64,000 nt of DNA from Leucoraja erinacea (taxonomy: Eukaryota), in the NCBI RefSeq assembly GCF_028641065.1, contig NC_073403.1:26412001-26476000 (forward strand), read 5' to 3'. The notes under the pieces were generated by a model that was not told the origin of the DNA, did not search any database, and saw nothing but the letters and a program-made list of their open reading frames with translations. A program made the position numbers and the translations under genes. Below are positions 4,598 through 60,061 of this stretch, piece after piece (the first letter of the stretch is position 1; each line of letters starts with the position of its first letter).

Positions 4598-6786
4598 CAT
4601 AGAAACATAGAAACATAGAAATTAGGTGCAGGAGTAGGCCATTCGGCCCTTCGAGCCTGCACCGCCATTCAATATGATCATGGCTGATCATCCAACTCAG
4701 TATCCCGTACCTGCCTTCTCTCCATACCCCCTGATCCCCTTAGCCACAAGGACCACATCTAACTCCCTCTTAAATATAGCCAATGAACTGGCCTCAACTA
4801 CCCTCTGTGGCAGAGAGTTCCAGAGATTCACCACTCTCTGTGTGAAAAAAGTTCTTCTCATCTCGGTTTTTAAAGGATTTCCCCTTTATCCTTAAGCTGT
4901 GACCCCTTGTCCTGGACTTCCCTAACATCGGGAACAATCTTCCTGCATCTAGCCTGTCCAACCCCTTAAGAATTTTGTAAGTTTCTATAAGATCCCCTCT
5001 CAATCTTCTAAATTCTAGAGAGTATAAACCAAGTCTATCCAGTCTTTCTTCATAAGACAGTCCTGACATCCCAGGAATCAGTCTGGTGAACCGTCTCTGC
5101 ACTCCCTCTATGGCAATAATGTCCTTCCTCAGATTTGGAGACCAAAACTGTACGCAATACTCCAGGTGTGGTCTCACCAAGACCCTGTACAACTGCAGTA
5201 GAACCTCTCTGCTCCTATACTGAAATCCTTTTGCAATGAAAGCTAACATACCATTCGCTTTCTTTACTGCCTGCTGCACCTGCATGCCTACCTTCAATGA
5301 CTGGTGTACCATGACACCCAGGTCTCGCTGCATCTCCCCCTTTCCCAATCGGCCACCATTTAGATAATAGTCTGCTTTCCTGTTTTTTTCCACCAAAATG
5401 GATAACCTCACATTTATCCACATTATACTGCATCTGCCAAACATTTGCCCACTCACCCAGCCTATCCAAGTCACCCTGCAGTCTCCTAGCATCCTCCTCA
5501 CAGCTAACACTGCCCCCCAGCTTAGTGTCATCCGCAAACTTGGAGATATTGCCTTCAATTCCCTCATCCAGATCATTAATATATATTGTAAATAGCTGGG
5601 GTCCCAGTACTGAGCCTTGGGGTACCCCACTAGTCACTGCCTGCCATTGTGAAAAGGACCCGTTTACTCCTACTCTTTGCTTCCTGTTTGCCAGCCAGTT
5701 CTCTATCCACATCAATACTGAACCCCCAATGCCTTGTGCTTTAAGTTTGTATACTAATTTTTTATGTGGGACCTTGTCGAAAGCCTTCTGGAAGTCCAGA
5801 TACACCACATCCACTGGTTCTCCCCTATCCACGCTACTAGTTACATCCTCGAAAAATTCTATAAGATTCGTCAGACATTATTTACCTTTCGTAAATCCAT
5901 GCTGACTTTGTCCAATGATTTCACCACTTTCCAAATGTGCTGCTATCCCATCTTTAATAACTGACTCTAGCAGTTTCCCCACTACCGATGTTTAGACTAA
6001 CTGGTCTGTAATTCCCCATTTTCTCTCTCCCTCCCTTCTTAAAAAGTGGGGTTACGTTTGCTACCCGCCAATCTTCAGGAACTACTCCAGAATCTAAAGA
6101 GTTTTGAAAGATTATTACTAATGCATCCACTATTTCTGGAGCTACTTCCTTAAGTACTCTGGGATGCAGCCTATCTGGCCCTGGGGATTTATCGGCCTTT
6201 AATCCATTCAATTTACCCAACACCACTTCCCGGCTAACCTGGATTTCACTCAATTCCTCCAACTCCTTTGACCCGCGGTCCCCTGCTATTTCCGGCAAAT
6301 TATTTATGTCTTCCTTAGTGAAGACGGAACCAAAGTAGTTATTCAATTGGTCCGCCATATCCTTGTTCCCCATGATCAACTCACCTGTTTCTGACTGCAA
6401 GGGACCTACATTTGTTTTAACTAATCTCTTTCTTTTCACATATCTATAAAAACTTTTGCAGTCAGTTTTTATGTTCCCTGCCAGTTTTCTTTCATAATCT
6501 ATTTTCCCTTTCCTAATTAAGCCCTTTGTCCTCCTCTGCTGGTCTTTGAATTTCTCCCAGTCCTCCGGTATGCTGCTTTTTCTGGCTAATTTGTACGCAT
6601 CATCCTTCGCTTTGATACTGTCCCTGATTTCCTTTGTTATCCATGGATGTACTACCTTCCCTGATTTATTCTTTTGCCAAACTGGGATGAACAATTTTTG
6701 TAGTTCATCCATGCAGTCTTTAAATGCCTTCCATTGCATATCCACCGTCAACCCTTTTAGAATTAATTGCCAGTCAATCTTGGCCA
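4598..6786 (-). mobile_element. Young CR1 LINE, 5'-truncated ORF2 (reverse transcriptase) with frameshifts
   Basis: ORFs 5954-6850, 5215-5832 and 4794-5630 contain [57 protein letters not shown]; (CATAGAAA)n tail at ~4598-4620. Confidence 0.95.
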
Positions 6787-6924
6787 TTTTGGGAGAACAA
6801 GTGGGAGAATGCCACAGTGGGAGAACAAAGGTCCCCCTTTGTTCTCCCACCGTCCCTCATGGCGGTCCCCAAATGTCGGGTCCTCATTATCCTTCTTCTC
6901 CCCCCCCCCCCCAACGCTCCACCA

Positions 6925-7734: not shown

Positions 7735-9190
7735 AAAAATGCCTCATATCTGACTTCATGGGTGGCCCCTTATTATTAAGCAGTGACCCTTGTTCTGGAT
7801 TATACCAAAGAAGAAATACTCTCCACACACCCAGCGTGTCGGAACCTCTCCAGATCTTTTTGATTCAATCAAGTCACCTTTCATTCTCCGAAACATCTGT
7901 AGACAAAAATCTAAGGTCCAACCTTTTCTCATAAAGCAATTTAATAATTCCGAGTATTAGTCCAGACTACTGGTTTATAATTACGCGTATATCCTTCCTT
8001 AAAAAAAGAAACCAATACTATACTGCAAGTAGACAAAAATGCTGGAGAAACTCAGCGGGTGAGGCAACATCTATGGAGCGAAGGAAATAGACAACGTTTT
8101 AGGTTGAGACCCTTCTTCAGACCCGAAATGTTGCCTATTTCCTTCGCTCCATAGATGCTGCCTCACCCGTTGAATTTCTCCAGCGTTTTTGTCTACCTTT
8201 GATTTTCCAGCATCTGCAGTTCCCTCTTAAACAATACTATACTGCAAATGTGTTCACACCAATTGTTTACATAGCCTCCCACCTTTGTGTTTAATTCCCC
8301 TGCCAATAGACAATAACCTTCCTTGAACTTTGTTAACAACTTATTGTATCCACTGAATTGTGTTTTAGGGCCCCGGATCCTTATGCCTCTTAGTGCTCTG
8401 TGACCTCACACTATTTAGATAATGTGCTTTTAAAAAATATGACAATACCAAAGAGGACAATTTTACATTTTCTTATGTTTCACTCCATTCAACAGGTCTT
8501 TGCCCATTCACTTCACATATCTCGATGCATTTGAAGCCTCCTAATATCCGCATCTCACTTGCTTTCCTACCAATGTTGATGTCTTCAGCAAATTTAGAGA
8601 CCATATCTTTGGCGCCTTCATCTAAATCATTGGTATGAATTGTAGAAAAATTGAAATTCCAGTATCCGTCGCTGTGGCCGACCAGTCATTACATCCTATC
8701 ACTTGTAACTAGATCCGTCTATGTCTACTTTCTGTTCCCTGTTCTTGAGCCAATCTCCAGTATGTCAGCACCCACATCATGACTGTTTACTTTCTGCAAA
8801 AAGCTTTGATGCAAAACCTTATCAGGTACCTTCTGGAAATCTAAATACAGTACATTCACCAGTTCCCCTTCATCACCAGAACCTGTTCCTATTTTGAAGA
8901 GCTCTACCAAAGTGGTTAGACATGATTTCCCTCTCTTAAAACCATATTGACCATCTGATTATCTGGGTTTATCAAGTGCCCAGCTGTAACACCTTTAATA
9001 TTCCCTTCTAATAATATCAGCGTTACTGTTGTTAATCAAACTGGTCTATTTTCTGCTCTCTGTTTCTCTGTTTATCCCGCCCATTTTGAACAATGGAGTT
9101 ACATTAGCTCTTTTCCATTCTAATGGATTATTTCCAAATAAAGTGAAATCTGGGAAATAAGAACCATGATCTCACCAACTATTTTGTTGT
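7735..9190 (-). mobile_element. Old degraded CR1 LINE (RT region), interrupted
   Basis: ORF 8725-8910 has VNVLYLDFQKVPDKVLHQ; colinear with young CR1 ORF2. Confidence 0.75.
8029..8231 (+). mobile_element. Penelope-type foldback short element with degenerate hammerhead motif
   Basis: Inverted arms GTAGACAAAAATGCTGGAGAAACTCAGCGGGTGAGGC.. / ..GCCTCACCCGTTGAATTTCTCCAGCGTTTTTGTCTAC; 16-bp TSD CAATACTATACTGCAA (8013-8028, 8232-8247). Confidence 0.8.
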
Positions 9191-9543: not shown

Positions 9544-9564
9544 TACATTTCACTGCCACAGTGA

Positions 9565-9790
9565 TGTTTAAGAAGAAACTGCAGATGCTGGAAAAATCGA
9601 AGGTAGACAAAAATGCTGGAGAAATTCAGCGGGTGAGGCAGCATCTATGGAGCGAAGGAATAGGTGACGTTTCGGGTCACCGACTCTGAAGTCTGAAGAA
9701 GGGTCTGAAGAAGTATCTCGACCTGAAATGTCACCGATTCCTTCGCTCCATAGATGCTGTCTCACCCGTTGAGTTTCTCCAGCATTTTTG
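9565..9790 (-). mobile_element. Penelope-type foldback short element
   Basis: Inverted arms around tandem CTGAAGAAG motifs; 13-bp TSD ACTGCCACAGTGA (9552-9564, 9791-9803). Confidence 0.8.
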
Positions 9791-10124
9791 ACTGCCACAG
9801 TGACTGTCATTTTCCCGAGTTCCTCCTCCATTCCAGTTCCAGTTCCTCCTCCATTCCAGTTCCAGCTAATGCTGGAATATTATGTGTATCATCAATAGTG
9901 ACGCCCCTTGGCACTTCAGAGTACACTATTAATGCTTCTGTCCACCTCTTAAATCTTTAACAGTTCAGGGTGCTCAACAAGCTCAGAGTGCAATATGCAT
10001 TTTCTATATTAATTAGAGCTCTCCAGTTTTGTTAGCTGCCACCTGCAGTGGTCCCTTTCTCCTCATGTGACAAACAAGTTTTGCCCAAAAAATGAAAGCA
10101 AGAAATGGCAAATCAAAATCGAGG

Positions 10125-15699: not shown

Positions 15700-16830
15700 A
15701 GAACTATCACGTTACAGGTACCTAAACTATAACCTTCCAAAGTTCCCCTGAATCAATTCCTTTAGATTGAAAATTGCACTTGTTAATCCACTATTTAATT
15801 GAAAGGAGGACACCAGGGAATTATAGACCAGTTAGCCTACAAACATTGGGAGGAAGTTATTTGAGCCCATAATTAAGAATGTAATGACAAAATATTTTGA
15901 GTTGTAGCATGGCTTTGTGAAGGATAGGTCATGCCTGACAACCGAATAAATATTTTGACAAATTAATAAAGCCAGTGAGCTGTGTAATGTATGTGAATGT
16001 TATTTATGTGAACTTTCAGAAGGCAGTTGATGACGTTTTTCATAAGAGACTGTTGAATGTCCTTAAACTCAATGCAAATTATTAACGTGGTCAGAAGAGC
16101 AGCAGGAGACACAAGGGACGGATGTGGACATACTCAAACTGGCTGCAGATGGAGATCTGAGGTGAGGCGCCAAATATTCACTGCATTCAATAATGATTTG
16201 GATGACAATATAGAGAATAATGTGATCGCGTTTTCTAATGATACAAAGGCAGCCAGTATTGTGAGCAGCAGAAGTTGATGTGCGTAGTTCAATGAAAATT
16301 CATGGACAGTTACAAAAAGAAAGAAATAAGAATGCAGACATATAGAGCTGAATAAAATACTCATAGGTGTGCAGCTCATGCTACTTCTGCACAAAGCAAT
16401 GGTTAAACCGCCACAGATAGACACAAAGTGCTGGAGTAAATCAACGGGTCCGGCAGCATCTCTGGAGAAAAGGAATAGATTTCGGCTTGAGACCCTTCTT
16501 CAGATTGAGAGCCAGGGGAGAGAGAAACGAGAGGTATGAAAAGGTACAGAACAAATCAGAGCTGGCACTGATGGCCAAGGTGTGTGTCCCCTGACTCTCA
16601 GTCTGAAAAAGGGTCTCAACCCGAAACGTCGCCTATCCCGTTTCTCCAGAGATGCTGTCTGACCCGTTGAGTTACTCCAGCTTTATGTGCCTAACTTCGG
16701 TGAGAACCAGCATTTGCAGTTCCTTCCTACACAATGGTTAAACAACATCTGGAATACAGTTTTCAGTCTGAAGCACTCAATCTTAGAAAGAAAACATTGG
16801 CTCTGGAGGAAATGCAGCCAAGATTGATTT
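15700..16830 (+). mobile_element. Old degraded CR1 LINE (RT region); upstream part at ~15130-15177
   Basis: GGGAATTATAGACCAGTTAGCCT (GNYRPVSL), CAGAAGGCAGTTGAT, TCTAATGATACAAAG (degenerate FADDTK). Confidence 0.7.
16409..16731 (+). mobile_element. Penelope-type foldback element with hammerhead motif in each arm
   Basis: GAGACCCTTCTTCAG on the left arm, CTGAAAAAGGGTCTCAACCCGAAACGTC on the right arm; TSD CAATGGTTAAAC (16397-16408, 16732-16743). Confidence 0.8.
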
Positions 16831-16837
16831 AAAATCC

Positions 16838-16934
16838 AGTCTGAGAAAGGGTCTCCACCCGAACCGTCGCCTATTCCTTTTCTCCAGAGATACTGCCTGA
16901 CCCGCTGAGTTACTCCAGCATTTTGTGTCTATGT
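16838..16934 (+). mobile_element. Penelope-type single arm
   Basis: CTGAGAAAGGGTCTCCACCCGAACCGTC followed by the ..CTCCAGAGATACTGCCTGACCCGCTGAGTTACTCCAGCA tail. Confidence 0.7.
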
Positions 16935-17004
16935 TTACTTAAATAATTCCTGGATTCTAGTACTTAAAATAAAAGGAGGGATTGCACAAACTAGGGATGT
17001 ACTT

Positions 17005-17827
17005 GCTAGAATACATTTTCCCAGGTAGTTGACCATTCCGAGGAACCTTTGTAAGCACACGACGTCAGTAGGAACCGGCATTTCGTTGATAGCTGTAGCA
17101 TTTGATGGGTCTGGTTTGAGACCGTCACTTGTGAAAACATGTCCGACGTAAGTAACCTCTGGAACTCGAAACCTACACTTCAGCGGATTGAGTTTGAGCT
17201 GAATGTCTTTGGCACGGTCAAGTACTTTCTTCAGATTGGCGTCATGTTCAGCCAGATCGCGTCCGGAGACGAGAGTATCATCAACAATGATGGTGCATGA
17301 GCACTCTGCAAACAATTGTTCCAATAGTGCGCTGGAAAACTTCGCTGACGGAGGTGATGCCAAAGGGCATTTCAGAAATTTGTATCGGCTAAAGGGGGTG
17401 CCGAACGTAGTGAGATTGGACGAATCTGGGTCCAGTGGAATCTGCCAAAACAAGCTTTTGGCATCCACAACTGAGAATACTGCTGCGTTGCCTATCTGGG
17501 CAGCAACTTCTTCTATTGTTCATGTTGGGTAATGCGGGCATTTGATTACAGTGTTAAGATCTCTGGGGTTGATGCAGATATGAATCTCCTCCTTGTTTTT
17601 CTTTGTTGCAACCACCATGGAGGGTGGGGATCGTTGTGATGAGCGATGCAGGCATAATGAGTGTAGTCACGTTCGAAAAGACGCCAGTGTTCAGCAATGT
17701 CAGAATCAAAGATCAGAGGACTTGGATGGTGACATGAATTTGCCATGATGAAGATAATAAACACACAAAAAGAAGATAAAACCCAATAAACATGAGTGGA
17801 GTGGGCAAGATTCACTCTCTGACACCA
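17005..17827 (-). mobile_element. Ty3/Gypsy internal remnant: PBS, gag N-terminus fused to RT fragment
   Basis: RT motifs DAKSLFWQIPL, TTFGTPFSRYKF, IIVDDTLV, KCRF..VTYVGH, LQRFLGMVNY; gag-like MANSCHHPSPLIFDSDIAEHWRLFE; PBS TGGTGTCAGAGAGTG (17813-17827) resembling the complement of a tRNA-Leu 3' end. Confidence 0.9.
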
Positions 17828-23014: not shown

Positions 23015-23140
23015 TGCATGAAAAAGTGTCCCAACCCGAAATGTCACCTATCCATTCCTTCCACGGGTGCTGCCTGACCTGCTGAGTTCCTCCAGCACTT
23101 TGTGTTTTATGCAAGGTTTTAGCATCTGCAGTTCCTCATA
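23015..23140 (+). mobile_element. Penelope-type single arm
   Basis: ..AACCCGAAATGTCACCTATCC..GCTGCCTGACCTGCTGAGTTCCTCCAGCAC..GCATCTGCAGTTCC. Confidence 0.65.
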
Positions 23141-24816: not shown

Positions 24817-25204
24817 NNNNNNNNNNNNNNNNNNNNNNNNNNNNNNNNNNNNNNNNNNNNNNNNNNNNNNNNNNNNNNNNNNNNNNNNNNNNNNNNNNNN
24901 NNNNNNNNNNNNNNNNNNNNNNNNNNNNNNNNNNNNNNNNNNNNNNNNNNNNNNNNNNNNNNNNNNNNNNNNNNNNNNNNNNNNNNNNNNNNNNNNNNNN
25001 NNNNNNNNNNNNNNNNNNNNNNNNNNNNNNNNNNNNNNNNNNNNNNNNNNNNNNNNNNNNNNNNNNNNNNNNNNNNNNNNNNNNNNNNNNNNNNNNNNNN
25101 NNNNNNNNNNNNNNNNNNNNNNNNNNNNNNNNNNNNNNNNNNNNNNNNNNNNNNNNNNNNNNNNNNNNNNNNNNNNNNNNNNNNNNNNNNNNNNNNNNNN
25201 NNNN
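24817..25204. other. Assembly gap (388 N)
   Basis: Run of n characters. Confidence 1.
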
Positions 25205-26782: not shown

Positions 26783-27105
26783 TGTGTAAAACGGAACTGC
26801 AGGTGCTGATTTATGCCGAAGAGAGACATAAAGTGCTGGAGTAACTCAGCAGTTCAGGCAGCATCATTGGAGAAAAAGAATGGGTGACGATTCGGGTCGG
26901 CACTCTTCTTCAGACTGTCTATCAATCAAAACACTGTTACAGACCTGAATGACAGAGGAGAATTAGCTACTTTCAGTCTGAAGAAAGGTCCTGACGCAAA
27001 ACGTTTGTGTGCACATTTCCCACCAGAAATGTTGTCTGACCGGTTGAGTCACTCCAGTGCTTTGCTATTTGCTCATGGTTCCAGCATCTGCAGTCCCTTG
27101 TATCT
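26783..27105. mobile_element. Two oppositely oriented Penelope-type arms
   Basis: 26783-26917 minus arm ending CTTCTTCAGACTG; 26974-27105 plus arm starting CAGTCTGAAGAAAGGTCCTGAC. Confidence 0.7.
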
Positions 27106-30179: not shown

Positions 30180-30285
30180 TGAAGATAGACACAAAAAGCT
30201 GGAGTAACTCAGCGGGACAGGCAGCACCTCTGGAGAGAAGGAATGGGTGATGATTCGGGTCGAGATCCTTCCTCTGCAGTTCCTA
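30180..30285 (-). mobile_element. Penelope-type arm
   Basis: GAAGATAGACACAAAAAGCTGGAGTAACTCAGCGGGACAGGCAGCA..TTCGGGTCGAGA. Confidence 0.7.
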
Positions 30286-33967: not shown

Positions 33968-34645
33968 TCAGAGTTGTACAGTGCAGCAATGGGCCCTTCA
34001 GCCCTCAACATCCACATTAACCTCTTTACCCCTCTGAACTAATTGCATTTTCTGCAGTGAGTCCACCTTTTTCTATGCCTTGGCTATTTAACTGCCTATC
34101 GAAATATCTTTTAAATGAGATGACTGCGTCTGATTCCACCACATCCTCTAGCAGGGAGGTCCAGACTCTGTGTGAAAAAATTCCCTTAAGTCCCCTTTAA
34201 AAATCATTTCTCTCACCTTAAATCTATGCCCTCTTGTTTCTGATACTTCTTTCATGGCAATAGGTTTTTGCCTATCTACCCTTCCTATGCCTCTAATAAA
34301 TGTATACACTTCTATCAGGTTATTACACTGCCTCCTATCACTCTAGAAAACCAACTCAAAATCTACAATGTTGACACTGAGTCTGAAGGGTCCTGACCCA
34401 AAACATCACATCTTCATGTCCTCCAGAGATACTGCCTGACCCGTTGAGTTCCCCCAGCACTTTGTGCCAACCTATACTATCTCTCCTCATGTCTATTATA
34501 ACTCATAACTAGGCAAAATCCTGGTACGTCCCCTGATGCAATCTCTCCAGCATATCTATGTCCTTCATATAGTGTTGCAACCAGAGCTGTAGACAATGCC
34601 CCAAGTGCAACCTAACTAGGGTTTTCTAAAGTTGCAACATAACAC
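33968..34645 (-). mobile_element. Old HER1-type CR1 3' region with a Penelope-type arm inserted at ~34378-34468
   Basis: CTCTGTGTGAAAAAATTCCC, CTATGCCCTCTTGT, CCAGAGCTGTAGACAATGCCCCAAGTG; insert GTCTGAAGGGTCCTGACCCAAAAC. Confidence 0.7.
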
Positions 34646-45935: not shown

Positions 45936-46449
45936 AAAATTATTGTATAATACTGAAGAAGGGGAAAAAAAAGTCAGAACCAATTTCTAGCCCTATATAT
46001 CCTCCTTCAGTTCAGATGTTAACTGACCCACTGAGTTACTGCAGCACTTTGTGACCAGCTTTGTCTGGATTGGAATCAGGACAGTACATAATCAGCAACA
46101 TATTAACCTTGTGAACTCGGCCGTACTCACAGTCCCACCAAAAGACTATCAGCTTAAATCTCTACCCTTGATTTTAAGGACATCTTCTGATCAATACTCT
46201 AGTAGCTTGGAATGTTATACCATTGGAGAAGCTATTTGAACGACTCAAACCGGGATTGATCTCCTGGTCCAGATGGCAATTAATGATTTCACAAATTGTT
46301 CAAGAAAAAAAAGCATGGAACCCTTCTTGTGTTCTGCATGGCCATTTTATCAGCCAGTATCTTCTCCCAAATCAACCTTACCACTAAATAACTGGTTTAA
46401 TGGTTTATTTACATTTGCATTTGCGGAATTTGCTTTTCTTGCTTCCTTA

Positions 46450-49590: not shown

Positions 49591-49695
49591 AGTTCTGAAG
49601 AAGGGTCTCGACCCGAAACGTCACCCATTCCTTCTCTCCAGAGATGCTGCCTGTCCCGCTGAGTTACTCCAGCATTTTGTGTCTATCTTCGGTTT
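49591..49695 (+). mobile_element. Penelope-type arm with the best-preserved minimal hammerhead motif (49595-49622)
   Basis: CTGAAGA-A-GGGTC-TC-GACCC-GAAA-CGTC. Confidence 0.75.
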
Positions 49696-50561: not shown

Positions 50562-50785
50562 ACAAGGAACTGCAGAAGCTAGTTTACAAAAGAAGACACA
50601 ATGTGCTGGAGTAACTCAGCAGGTTAGAACATGAATAGGCAACATTTCGGGTTGGGACCTCACTTCAGACTCAATAGGCGATGTTTCGAGTCAGGACCTT
50701 TCTTCATACTGAAGAAGGGACCCAACCCAAAACTTCACCTATCCATGTTCTCCAGAGATGCTGAATTATTCCAGCACTTTGCATC
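50562..50785 (-). mobile_element. Penelope-type foldback element with tandem motif copies
   Basis: GGAACTGCAGAAGCT..TGCTGGAGTAACTCAGC; two minus motifs then plus CTGAAGAAGGGACCCAACCCAAAAC. Confidence 0.7.
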
Positions 50786-54956: not shown

Positions 54957-56800
54957 AGAAACAGAAATATAGAAACATAGAAATTAGGTGCAGGAGTAGG
55001 CCATTCGGCCCTTCAAGCCTGCACCGCCATTCAATATGATCATGGCTGATCATCCAACTCAGTATCCCGTACCTGCCTTCTCTCCATACCCTCTGATCCC
55101 CTTAGCCACAAGGGCCACATCTAACTCCCTCTTAAATATAGCCAATGAACTGGCCTCGACTACCCTCTGCGGCAGAGAGTTCCAGAGATTCACCACTCTC
55201 TGTGTGAAAAAAGTTCTTCTCATCTCGGTTTTAAAGGATTTCCCCCTTATCCTTAAGCTGTGACCCCTTGTCCTGGACTTCCCCAACATCGGGAGCAATC
55301 TTCCTGCATCTAGCCTGTCCAACCCCTTAAGAATTTTGTAAGTTTCTATAAGATCCCCTCGCAATCTCCTAAATTCTAGAGAGTATAAACCAAGTCTATC
55401 CAGTCTTTCTTCATAAGACAGTCCTGACATCCCAGGAATCAGTCTGGTGAACCTTCTCTGCACTCCCTCTATGGCAATAATGTCCTTCCTCAGATTTGGA
55501 GACCCAAACTGTACGCAATACTCCAGGTGTGGTCTCACCAAGACCCTGTACAACTGCAGTAGAACCTCCCTGCTCCTATACTCAAATCCTTTTGTTATGA
55601 AAGCTAACATACCATTCGCTTTCTTCACTGCCTGCTGCACCTGCATACCTACTTTCAATGACTGGTGTACCATGACACCCAGGTCTCGCTGCATCTCCCC
55701 TTTTCCTAGTCGGCCACCATTTAGATAATAGTCTGCTTTCCTGTTTTTGCCACCAAAATGGATAACCTCACATTTAACCACATTATACTGCATCTGCCAA
55801 ACATTTGCCCACTCACCCAGCCTATCCAAGTCACCTTGCAGTCTCCTAGCATCCTCCTCACAGCTAACACTGCCCCCCCAGCTTAGTGTCATCCGCAAAC
55901 TTGGAGATATTGCCTTCAATTCCCTCATCCAGATCATTAATATATATTGTAAATAGCTGGGGTCCCAACACTGAGTCTTGCGGCACCCCACTAGTCACTG
56001 CCTGCCATTGTGAAAAGGACCCGTTTACTCCTACTCTTTGCTTCCTGTTTGCCAGCCAGTTCTCTATCCACATCAATACTGAACCCCCAATGCCGTGTAC
56101 TTTAAGTTTGTATACTAATCTCTTATGTGGGACCTTGTCGAAAGCCTTCTGGAAGTCCAGATACACCACATCCACTGGTTCTCCCCTATCCACGCTATTA
56201 GTTACATCCTCGAAAAATTCTATAAGATTCATCAGACATGATTTACCTTTCGTAAATCCATGCTGACTTTGTCCAATGATTTCACCACTTTCCAAATGTG
56301 CTGCTATCCCATCTTTAATAACTGACTCTAGCAGTTTCCCCACTACCGATGTTAGACTAACTGGTCTGTAATTCCCTGTTTTCTCTCTCCCTCCCTTCTT
56401 AAAAAGTGGGGTTACGTTTGCTACCCGCCAATCCTCAGGAACTACTCTAGAATCTAAAGAGTTTTGAAAGATTATTACTAATGCATCCACTATTTCTGGA
56501 GCTACTTCCTTAAGTACTCTGGGATGCAGCCTATCTGGCCCTGGGGATTTATCGGCCTTTAATCCATTCAATTTACCCAACACCACTTCCCGGCTAACCT
56601 GGATTTCACTCAATTCCTCCAACTCCTTTGACCCGCGGTCCCCTGCTATTTCCGGCAAATTATTTATGTCTTCCTTAGTGAAGACGGAACCAAAGTAGTT
56701 ATTCAATTGGTCCGCAATATCCTTGTTCCCCATGATCAACTCACCTGTTTCTGACTGCAAGGGACCTACATTTGTTTTAACTAATCTCTTTCTTTTCACA
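54957..56800 (-). mobile_element. Young CR1 LINE, 5'-truncated, RT domain with one frameshift
   Basis: ORFs 55864-56799 and 55059-55991; near-identical to 4598-6440. Confidence 0.95.
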
Positions 56801-56814
56801 TTAGTTCAGTTATC

Positions 56815-58774: not shown

Positions 58775-59130
58775 CCACCTGGACTCACACCTATATCTCC
58801 TCACCCATCCTCCTTCCTCCAGCTTCACAATTTGCAACTATTCAATCCTTACATCTCAAACCATCTGCTTTTTCATCTCTGGCCTTTGTCCAACCATCTG
58901 CCTATAAAAAATACCTGACCTGTATTCACCTATTACCTGCCAGGCTTTGGCCTGCCCCTCCTCTCTTCCAGCTTTTCTCCCCCCACCCCACTGCCACAAT
59001 CAGTCTGAAGCAAGGACCCGACCCGAAACGTCACCTATCCACGTTCTCCAGAGACACAGCCGGACTAGCTGAGTTACTCTAGCACTTTGCGTCCTTTTTG
59101 AAAACCAGCGTCATCAGTTCCTTGTTTCCA
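58775..59130 (+). mobile_element. Longer Penelope-type 3' region
   Basis: C/T-rich leader, then CAGTCTGAAGCAAGGACCCGACCCGAAACGTCACC and family tail. Confidence 0.65.
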
Positions 59131-59831: not shown

Positions 59832-60061
59832 ACCTACCAAGAATCTTTTAATGTAGTAAAACTGTCATCTTTCATCTTACAGGCACATAGTGCTGACTCG
59901 GTGAGTCAGTCAGCATCTCAGGTTGAAACCCTTCTTAGGACCATCTCGACCCGAAACGTCGCCCATTCCTTTTCCAGAGATGCTGCTCGACTCACTGAGT
60001 TACTCCAGCACTGTGTGTCTGATAGATGAGAGTTTACTACATTAAAAGATTATTGGTAGGT
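59832..60061. mobile_element. Penelope-type foldback with ~40 bp of extra inverted sequence at both ends
   Basis: ACCTACCAAGAATCTTTTAATGTAGTAAAACTGTCATC / GATGAGAGTTTACTACATTAAAAGATTATTGGTAGGT; centre TCTCGACCCGAAACGTC. Confidence 0.75.

What the first reader, a model, noticed from the sequence alone, without database searches (positions are those of the whole stretch)
8013..8247. Family of foldback retroposons built around a minimal hammerhead ribozyme motif, inserted with 12-16 bp TSDs
Seen: more than ten short elements share CTGAAGA-A-GGGTC(N)GACCC-GAAA-CGTC plus a ~100-nt tail. Three (8029-8231, 9565-9790, 16409-16731) share one architecture: a truncated inverted tail, a motif centre and a full tail ending GCAGTTCC..ACA (in either orientation), with TSDs of 16, 13 and 12 bp. 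Known: CUGANGA / stem II / GAAA / NUH is the hammerhead core, and Penelope-like elements carry minimal type I hammerheads with a palindromic stem III that can cleave as dimers and often have inverted 5' pseudo-LTRs. Inference: these are non-autonomous, retrozyme-like Penelope derivatives mobilised by target-primed reverse transcription with a stereotyped fold-back step. This is the best candidate here for an under-described system.
Basis: partly seen in the sequence, partly recalled or inferred. Interest (0 to 1): 0.7.

Follow-up and report, generated by a model that had tools for sequence, protein, structure and literature searches.

The report
Two-ended Penelope stubs with hammerhead motif
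These short mirror-image repeats are stubs of a known kind of jumping gene (a Penelope-like element whose end carries a minimal hammerhead-ribozyme motif), not a separate family; in the clearly bounded copies examined one end has a short tail that the other lacks, which likely means that each cut DNA strand starts its own copy of the element's RNA.

Summary
The three elements and their TSDs (16, 13, 12 bp) are real. The core has 111,811 matches in the genome (control 58).

It is the end repeat (pLTR) of a 3,948-bp RT + GIY-YIG Penelope-like element, of which young copies exist. An inverted 5'-truncated copy, a one-sided 30-40 bp tail and a TSD are described PLE anatomy.

The data do not support an independent retrozyme-like family or a stereotyped fold-back. 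Inner junctions differ in 66 of 69 elements, and either arm can reach further 5' (35 vs 19). The outer ends are what is fixed: 46 of 46 classifiable TSD-bounded inverted copies have one long and one short end. The best model (inferred) is that both target strands prime at two internal RT start sites. The two cDNAs then join, often after running off near the ribozyme start.

Stub starts do not pile up at the cleavage site. The scan reached the same reading before on other DNA. Verdict: new member of a known kind, useful for testing PLE insertion.

The parts
8013..8028 (.). Element 1, left target-site duplication (16 bp)
8029..8122 (-). Element 1, inverted short arm of subfamily B pLTR (ref -1..+92); outer end at the short site; hammerhead core with GAAA box mutated
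8120..8231 (+). Element 1, long arm (ref +16..long end) including the ~35-nt tail (about 8197-8231); 3-nt overlap GAC with the other arm at 8120-8122
8232..8247 (.). Element 1, right target-site duplication
9552..9564 (.). Element 2, left TSD (13 bp)
9565..9678 (-). Element 2, long arm (ref +16..long end), subfamily B
9679..9702 (+). Element 2, 24-nt junction insert made largely of repeated pieces of the first ~12 nt of the ribozyme
9703..9790 (+). Element 2, short arm (ref -1..short site); core boxes present, stem II broken
9791..9803 (.). Element 2, right TSD
16397..16408 (.). Element 3, left TSD (12 bp)
16409..16580 (-). Element 3, inverted short arm, subfamily A, continuing ~75 nt into the PLE 3' UTR
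   Evidence: spacer has 16 blastn hits in fetched loci
16581..16731 (+). Element 3, long arm with tail, subfamily A (inner start approximate)
16732..16743 (.). Element 3, right TSD
16837..16935 (+). Solo short-ended stub, subfamily A
23019..23136 (+). Old solo long-ended stub
26783..27099 (.). Two outward-facing long-ended arms, different in age and type, no TSD found: probably two separate insertions
30181..30274 (-). Solo short-ended stub
34385..34466 (+). Old solo stub
46014..46061 (+). Fragment of the pLTR (ref +48..+95)
49594..49695 (+). Solo short-ended stub with the one exact minimal hammerhead motif of the window (49595-49622)
50564..50763 (.). Cluster of three decayed arm fragments with an inversion at the ribozyme start
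59000..59123 (+). Old solo long-ended stub
59944..60020 (+). Solo short-ended stub

Best explanation
The repeats are stubs of the hammerhead-bearing end repeat of an RT + GIY-YIG Penelope-like retrotransposon, and the mirror-image copies likely form when both nicked target strands prime reverse transcription, one at each of two internal start sites that likely lie on one uncut RNA. SHOWN: the repeat is the pLTR of a 3,948-bp unit; it has two recurrent 3' ends (short ~+90-96, long ~+128-131) that both lie inside the continuous unit; TSD-bounded inverted copies pair one long with one short end; the inner junctions vary; TSDs are 8-21 bp. INFERRED: the element's protein nicks both strands ~10-16 bp apart; one 3' OH primes at the long site and the other at the short site (1-3 nt microhomology); the two cDNAs stop independently and join at small inverted microhomologies or through short inserts; use of one site alone gives solo stubs. 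INFERRED, weaker: many cDNAs end at -4..+2 because the mRNA begins there (TCAGTC fits an initiator consensus, recalled), so the ~95- and ~133-nt stubs would be run-off by-products of priming in the 5' pLTR. The hammerhead is carried along; its cleavage would not define the template.
For: PLE identity: 23 of 30 loci; 19 of 20; RVT_1 E 1e-6 and GIY-YIG E 0.007, both under Pfam cut-off; shark proteins 65-69% identical; unit 3,948 bp; CX4CX2C, GIY-YIG-type box, YIDD. Sequence continues past the long end into the 5' body, so both ends are internal. Bimodal 3' ends. Outward-facing neighbours within 100 nt: 143 against 28, 25 and 29 for the other orientations. Of 195 outward pairs, the 49 with an exact abutting TSD >=9 are 46 long+short, 0 long+long, 0 short+short, 3 unclassifiable; in the subset not selected by a search 24 LS, 6 SS, 3 LL, 11 other. 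Large inverted copies: 4 of 4 seen first are long+short with 13-14 bp TSDs, and 3 of 5 predictions written beforehand were met. Short arm reaches further 5' in 35, long arm in 19, symmetric 15 of 69; long arm is tail only in 10 of 114. The short site is also a TSD-bounded end of solo copies (20 of 90 with exact TSD >=10, control 33 of 1500). Microhomology at the short end mean 1.59 vs 0.36 nt in 32 of 48 elements placed cleanly; junction overlap >=4 nt in 15 of 59 vs 3% random; inserts in 19 of 59. Arms share a source: same subfamily in 116 of 121, shared variants 2.6 vs 1.3-1.4 per 100, 0.4-1.2% vs median 1.1-4.0% mismatch in 6 young elements. 5' pile-up: 85 of 269 solos start at -5..+4 against at most 18 per other 10-nt bin, 12 around the cleavage site; 13 of 29 TSD-defined; homology falls most sharply between -2 and -3. 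Literature: the Anolis PLE protein cleaves and extends both strands, starts at two internal sites that bound the tail, is predicted to be a dimer, and inserts uncleaved RNA in vitro (PMC11167929, parts 1-2 of 4 read).
Against: Nothing here observes intermediates; geometry alone cannot exclude fold-back followed by asymmetric deletion of the hairpin centre. Among 7 large inverted copies 5 have the long arm reaching further 5', as fold-back predicts. One of the 5 predictions failed (L274: both ends long, no TSD) and one could not be resolved (L280). 30 of 195 outward pairs are LL or SS, none with an abutting TSD >=9. Arm likeness shows a shared source locus, not one RNA molecule, and two of six elements have an outside arm as close or closer. 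Tiny inverted remnants of the other end were found in 0 of 18 solo long and 3 of 20 solo short copies, and solo starts do not pile up at the short site. For the transcription-start step: only 1 of 26 near-full-length young copies has its 5' pLTR begin at the ribozyme start; the -5..+4 bin is inflated by the edge of my reference; the same bases also look like a splice acceptor. The sample is mostly the first 20 Mb of one contig and partly chosen on the long end.
Confidence: 0.66

Rival explanations
1. Fold-back or self-priming: one target-primed cDNA (or an antisense RNA, as proposed for rotifer Penelopes) folds at a palindrome and copies itself; the endonuclease resolves the second end at the short site; later deletions make the centre asymmetric.
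For: Junction overlaps at palindromes are enriched (15 of 59 with >=4 nt; 15 of 69 symmetric); arms share a source; 5 of 7 large inverted copies have the long arm longer. Proposed in PMC3846280 (Discussion read); PMC8557442 ascribes the tail to EN-mediated resolution (passages).
Against: Either one-primer version allows only one sign of asymmetry, yet both are common (35 vs 19 of 69); 10 of 114 long arms are tail only; 19 of 59 junctions carry inserts; the short site is a primary TSD-bounded end in solo copies.
Confidence: 0.18
2. Two-ended priming, but on two separate RNA molecules held by an asymmetric protein dimer rather than on one RNA.
For: All long+short, geometry and junction results fit equally; 5 of 121 close pairs mix subfamilies.
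Against: Needs an extra rule to forbid long+long and short+short (0 of 46) and to keep arms from one source; the mixed pairs show no TSD >=8.
Confidence: 0.1
3. An independent non-autonomous, retrozyme-like family: short master elements or tandem units are cut by the hammerhead (as dimers), circularised and mobilised in trans.
For: Only 5 of 124 unselected arms that reach the ribozyme start have PLE coding sequence upstream, and the window has none; one internally deleted tandem mini-unit exists (L009); a 2026 preprint reports tandem retrozymes in one chondrichthyan and derives them from pLTRs (10.64898/2026.07.22.740005, parts 1-3 of 5 read).
Against: 66 of 69 junctions distinct; the L009 deletion junction is unique among 40 matches; no 5' pile-up at the cleavage site; no tandem array of whole ribozyme-bearing units with a regular period seen among 828 arms, only 66-nt arrays lacking CUGANGA; continuous size series up to full length; monomer hammerhead fold -3.9 vs MFE -10.1 kcal/mol.
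Confidence: 0.05
4. Ordinary MITE or chance palindromes.
For: The elements fold as long hairpins (-126.6 kcal/mol, z -17).
Against: TSD length varies 8-21 bp, termini are asymmetric, and the sequence is the end of an RT-encoding unit.
Confidence: 0.01

Closest known systems
Insertion units of EN+ Penelope-like elements: pLTR, adjacent inverted 5'-truncated copy, one-sided 30-40 bp tail, TSD (PMC8557442 Fig. 2 legend and passages; Pen2a_Av and others in PMC3846280, passages and Discussion)
   Same: Partial tandems, head-to-head inverted pLTR, ~35-38 nt tail at one end, TSDs, palindromes at some junctions, RT followed by GIY-YIG.
   Different: Here most copies are only 95-330 bp, about 4% of sampled bases; the long+short pairing is counted and exclusive among TSD-bounded pairs; the ORF region has a ~480-aa N-terminal extension with no Pfam match.
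Neptune/Nematis-type PLEs (CX2-5CxxC motif between RT and EN; PMC8557442 passages)
   Same: CX4CX2C just before the GIY-YIG box; C-terminal EN.
   Different: No phylogeny with named references was built; assignment to Neptune rests on the motif and on a vertebrate host.
Poseidon_Ac (PAc) of Anolis, studied in vitro (PMC11167929, parts 1-2 of 4 read)
   Same: Two internal RT start sites bounding the tail; hammerhead upstream of them; A/T-rich bases after the long end (A 40, T 22, T 19 of 48), recalling its ATT cut preference.
   Different: Different clade; PAc start sites are non-homologous to the target, whereas the short end here shows 1-3 nt microhomology; the parts read do not link the two sites to inverted copies.
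Minimal type I hammerheads of metazoan PLEs (PMC4209133, parts 1-2 of 4 read)
   Same: Core boxes, extra base after A9, G10.1-C11.1, palindromic CG at 15.2/16.2, no loop 3.
   Different: Helix II is 4 bp (7-8 bp in Schistosoma), helix I only 2 bp as in D. virilis; the young subfamily has a GUU triplet; 111,811 core matches against ~4,000 and ~9,000 reported for coelacanth and Xenopus.
Metazoan non-LTR retrozymes (PMC7229834 passages; bioRxiv 10.64898/2026.07.22.740005)
   Same: Type I hammerhead, PLE ancestry, no coding capacity in the short copies.
   Different: Retrozymes are tandem repeats of 150-450 bp units processed to circles; these are dispersed solo or head-to-head copies with TSDs.
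L1 twin priming
   Same: Second target strand primes an inverted segment, with microhomology and TSD kept.
   Different: In L1 the second site is variable and the arms do not overlap; here the second site is recurrent and the arms usually duplicate the same stretch.

Membership tests
EN+ Penelope-like element | RT domain followed by C-terminal GIY-YIG endonuclease in the parent unit | tested here: met
   Pfam scores are below the curated cut-offs but the motifs and homologues agree. The window stubs themselves carry no coding sequence.
EN+ Penelope-like element | pLTR formed by partial tandem copies | tested here: met
   26 of 30 young 5'-body loci are preceded by a pLTR piece of 50 to >1500 nt; unit 3,948 bp.
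EN+ Penelope-like element | Inverted 5'-truncated copy and 30-40 bp tail at one end | tested here: met
EN+ Penelope-like element | Variable-length TSD | tested here: met
   8-21 nt, mode 14, in 64 of 114.
EN+ Penelope-like element | RT groups with telomerase/PLE RTs in a tree | not tested
   No named PLE reference sequences were at hand.
Neptune/Nematis clade | CX2-5CxxC motif between RT and EN | tested here: met
   Residues 678-686 of the L217 ORF.
Neptune/Nematis clade | Phylogenetic placement with named Neptune elements | not tested
   Homologues found are unnamed or 'uncharacterized'.
Minimal type I hammerhead (PLE type) | CUGANGA and GAAA boxes, extra base 9/10, G10.1-C11.1, palindromic 15.2-16.2, NUH | tested here: met
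   198 descriptor hits in 1.78 Mb of loci, control 0; CG at 15.2/16.2 in 143 of 198. Met for the family, not for the three named elements.
Minimal type I hammerhead (PLE type) | Compensatory changes in helices I and II | tested here: inconclusive
   Only one-sided changes between subfamilies: stem II U-A 106 / U.G 67, stem I U-A 79 / U.G 88 of 184; no two-sided change among the common types. Most copies decay neutrally.
Minimal type I hammerhead (PLE type) | Match to Rfam hammerhead models | tested here: not met
   0 at gathering in the window; no hammerhead family at E<=10 around the exact copy. Expected for a motif without helix III (inference).
Minimal type I hammerhead (PLE type) | Self-cleavage as dimer or with protein | not testable with these tools
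   Folding predicts the active fold is not favoured in monomer or unconstrained dimer.
Non-LTR retrozyme | Tandem units each holding a complete hammerhead | tested here: not met
   Window copies are solo or head-to-head; regular arrays seen only for a 66-nt piece lacking CUGANGA. Sample 1.15 Mb, not the genome.
Non-LTR retrozyme | Template ends at the ribozyme cleavage site; circular RNA | tested here: not met
   12 of 269 solo 5' ends in the bin of the cleavage site, like its neighbours (16, 10). Circular RNA itself could not be tested.
Independent non-autonomous family | Many copies share one internal structure | tested here: not met
   66 of 69 junctions distinct; L009 junction unique.
MITE | Symmetric TIRs and fixed short TSD | tested here: not met

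The most novel reading that the evidence does not exclude
The PLE protein works as a dimer that primes both target strands at two fixed sites on one RNA. The unexplained PLE signature (inverted pLTR plus one-sided tail) is then the direct footprint of two-ended priming, and the roughly one million 95-135 nt stubs in this genome are run-off copies of the mRNA's own 5' end that map its transcription start.
Probability: 0.5. Interest if true: 0.62.

Novelty: new member of a known kind. Interest (0 to 1): 0.4.

Why it matters
The element class, its hammerhead and its inverted-plus-tail shape are known, so the discovery value as a new system is low. The value is mechanistic. How PLEs make inverted ends and the tail is still open: published accounts invoke self-priming or endonuclease resolution. 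This genome gives a very large natural series, from 95 bp to 7 kb, with a strict long+short rule and young, nearly identical copies. That makes two-ended priming directly testable, and it ties the in vitro Anolis result (both strands extended, two start sites) to a genomic signature. The stubs also cover about 4% of the sampled DNA, so they matter for repeat annotation in cartilaginous fish.

Tried and rejected
- Rfam: no hit.
- PLE coding sequence in the window: none by tblastn; the RT fragments in the window are of other elements.
- Template cut at the ribozyme site: no 5' pile-up.
- Host-exon splicing into the acceptor-like CAG at -1: in TSD-defined solos the TSD abuts the start, so no exon is captured. 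No GT..AG joint to that site is among the 15 joints shown per lay (63 and 49 more were not shown). Left open as a feature of the parent RNA.
- Transcription start tested on near-full-length copies: 1 of 26 fits.
- Repeated copying of the 5' end as a general rule: 3 of 105, 1 of 66 and 0 of 123 arms; anecdotal only.
- Tiny inverted remnants in solos: 0 of 18 and 3 of 20.
- A recurrent mini-master like L009: single copy.
- Sequencing runs: no RNA holder listed. Raw RNA reads of two coded related organisms lay on the repeat on both strands, with no start or end pile-up near the ribozyme, but they are dominated by dispersed copies and say nothing on the element's own transcript.
- Supplements of PMC11167929: 3 text files searched, no hit for tail, inverted or initiation; its figures S1-S2 could not be seen and may bear on the link between start sites and inverted copies.
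- Paper searches for a published two-ended model: 'Penelope' + 'twin priming' gave 3 unrelated listings; a five-term search from 2022 gave only PMC11167929; chondrichthyan PLE searches gave 3 and 1 listings. Subscription papers (Arkhipova 2006, Evgen'ev and Arkhipova 2005) and Repbase/Dfam were not available, so neither the family nor the model is shown to be unpublished.
- The script stopped with an error after 11 rows; two tandem comparisons are missing.

Full report
1. Observation. The window holds 19 arms of the repeat at about 13 places. The motif as written finds nothing: two bases, not one, lie between GGGTC and GACCC, and the workable helix II is 4 bp with a CUCG or UUCG tetraloop. Numbering below sets C3 of the ribozyme as +1. 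The own genome (2.19 Gb) has 15,042 exact copies of the 28-nt motif and 111,811 matches to the core boxes at this spacing, against 58 for the reversed control. In 478 kb not centred on a search hit there are 225 arms covering 4.0% of bases; scaled up that is roughly a million arms, a rough figure from a sample taken mostly on one contig. None of the three named elements keeps both core boxes with intact stems, and element 1 folds into one long hairpin that buries the motif.

2. What it is. One of the first ten motif loci carried a GIY-YIG-like reading frame just upstream. That protein has 122,582 first-look candidates in the genome. In 23 of the 30 best loci the motif lies 88-120 nt after the ORF end; 4 were not parsed and 3 had no pattern match. 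An N-terminal query found many open frames of 770-840 aa; 19 of 20 fetched loci have the repeat directly behind the ORF. The ORF has weak Pfam hits to RVT_1 and GIY-YIG, both under the cut-offs, a CX4CX2C motif before the GIY-YIG box, and its best named relatives are shark proteins at 65-69% identity. The host is therefore likely a cartilaginous fish. The unit is 3,948 bp and occurs in partial tandems; past the long end the sequence runs on into the 5' body, and 9 of 41 matches to that 5' body are 100% identical over the full query, so one subfamily is young. Elements 1 and 2 belong to subfamily B, element 3 to subfamily A, which is also linked to coding sequence (15 arms). The repeat is thus a pLTR of an EN+ Penelope-like element, Neptune type by motif (PMC8557442, passages).

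3. Anatomy of the insertions. In 1.15 Mb of loci I found 828 distinct arms. Their 3' ends are bimodal, near +90-96 and +128-131, also in the unselected subset. Neighbouring arms within 100 nt face outward in 143 cases, against 28, 25 and 29 for the other orientations. Of 195 outward pairs within 1 kb, 118 are long+short, 20 short+short, 10 long+long and 47 unclassifiable; of the 49 with an exact abutting TSD of 9 or more, 46 are long+short, none long+long or short+short, 3 unclassifiable. Sampling on the long end would favour long+long, not suppress it. TSDs run 8-21 nt, mode 14 (64 of 114 pairs; control 28 of 2000). Four large inverted copies (2.6-6.1 kb) seen first are all long+short with 13-14 bp TSDs. 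Five predictions were noted before the distal ends were fetched: three were met, one failed (both ends long, no TSD) and one could not be resolved. The inner junctions are not stereotyped: 66 of 69 differ. The short arm reaches further 5' in 35, the long arm in 19, and 15 are symmetric; in 10 of 114 the long arm is only the tail. Junctions overlap by 4 nt or more in 15 of 59 (3% by chance) and carry inserts in 19 of 59. Both sites also end solo copies with TSDs: 18 of 104 long and 20 of 90 short, controls about 2%. The two arms come from one source.

4. Mechanism. A single cDNA primed at the long site and folding back must leave the long arm reaching further 5'; self-priming of an antisense RNA, proposed in PMC3846280 (Discussion), also allows only one sign. 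Both signs are common, and tail-only long arms exist. The simplest reading is that each target strand primes its own cDNA, one at each site. It fits the Anolis PLE in vitro, which extends both strands, starts at two internal sites that bound the tail and is predicted to be a dimer (PMC11167929). The exclusive long+short pairing suggests both sites lie on one RNA. That step is inferred, and arm likeness cannot separate one molecule from one source locus. Fold-back followed by asymmetric deletion of the centre remains possible: 5 of 7 large copies have the long arm longer. Solo 5' ends pile up at -5..+4 (85 of 269; 13 of 29 TSD-defined), and upstream homology drops most between -2 and -3. TCAGTC there fits an initiator consensus (recalled); PLEs are known to have internal promoters in the pLTR (PMC2377424, passages; PMC3846280). 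Priming in the 5' pLTR of an mRNA that begins at -2 would give the ~95- and ~133-nt stubs. Against this, only 1 of 26 near-full-length copies begins there, my reference ended at -4, and the same bases resemble a splice acceptor, as at helix I in D. virilis (PMC4209133).

5. The ribozyme. The family meets the sequence definition of the PLE minimal hammerhead (198 descriptor hits, control 0; PMC4209133 parts 1-2). Helix I is 2 bp. Subfamily changes keep pairing on one side only (U-A to U.G in both helices); no two-sided change is among the common types. The young subfamily has a GUU triplet (57 of 184 core matches carry its linked letters). The active fold is not favoured in a monomer (-3.9 vs -10.1 kcal/mol). 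There is no 5' pile-up at the cleavage site (12 of 269, neighbours 16 and 10), in line with the Anolis result that uncleaved RNA is the main substrate. Rfam has no match. Activity is untested.

6. Comparison with what is known. The inverted copy, one-sided tail and TSD are described as typical PLE features. Retrozymes are tandem units processed to circles (preprint); that definition is not met by these copies. It works like L1 twin priming (recalled), with a recurrent second site and overlapping arms. I found no paper stating the two-ended model in searches, but the library lacks subscription journals and Repbase/Dfam, and the supplementary figures of PMC11167929 could not be seen. The scan's own notes reached the same readings on this and other genomes. 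My reading was written down before those look-ups, and those notes are not independent support.

7. Verdict. A real, very abundant feature; a new member of a known kind. Confidence: PLE origin about 0.97; two-ended priming about 0.75, on one RNA about 0.66; run-off at a transcription start about 0.55. Interest 0.4, for making the origin of the PLE inverted end and tail testable.

Noticed in passing
L221:4272-5894, L218:1291-2718, L230:1453-4833, L268, L271, L273: The young PLE unit has a ~480-550 aa N-terminal frame (helical start, then a proline-rich repeat region) with no Pfam match. In most copies read it is in a different frame from the RT-EN part, with the offset in a C-rich tract; L230 has one 1,127-aa frame. 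Homopolymer errors, decay or a programmed shift: not resolved.
   Followed up: partly
   Followed up: no
L009:1290-1600: Internally deleted tandem mini-unit of subfamily A (tail + ~95 nt of 5' body + end of 3' UTR); its junction is unique among 40 matches.
   Followed up: yes
window 9679-9702: The junction insert of element 2 repeats the first ~12 nt of the ribozyme, as if the RT ran off and re-primed at the same point; rare elsewhere (4 of 294 arms).
   Followed up: yes
L239:1366-1405 and other young copies: The youngest subfamily changed the cleavage triplet from GUC to GUU and the loop to UUCG, with U.G wobbles in both helices.
   Followed up: partly
ref -15..0 of the pLTR, e.g. window 16585-16602: Pyrimidine tract, CTGAC and CAG just before the ribozyme look like a branch point and 3' splice site, and also like an initiator; not resolved.
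   Followed up: partly
window 4794-6856 and 55059-56805 (- strand): Two near-identical, frameshifted LINE reverse transcriptase fragments (Pfam RVT_1 for 55864-56805; CR1-like is a recalled label).
   Followed up: no
window 16935-17519 (- strand): RT fragment of LTR-retrotransposon type (Pfam RVT_1 E 2e-15; type recalled from motifs), directly beside the solo stub at 16837-16935.
   Followed up: no
window 24817-25204: 388-nt run of N beside a CA microsatellite.
   Followed up: no
L215:1385-7521: A 6.1-kb head-to-head insertion of two ~3-kb arms, each with an ~800-aa open frame, 0.41% apart, with a 13-bp TSD.
   Followed up: yes
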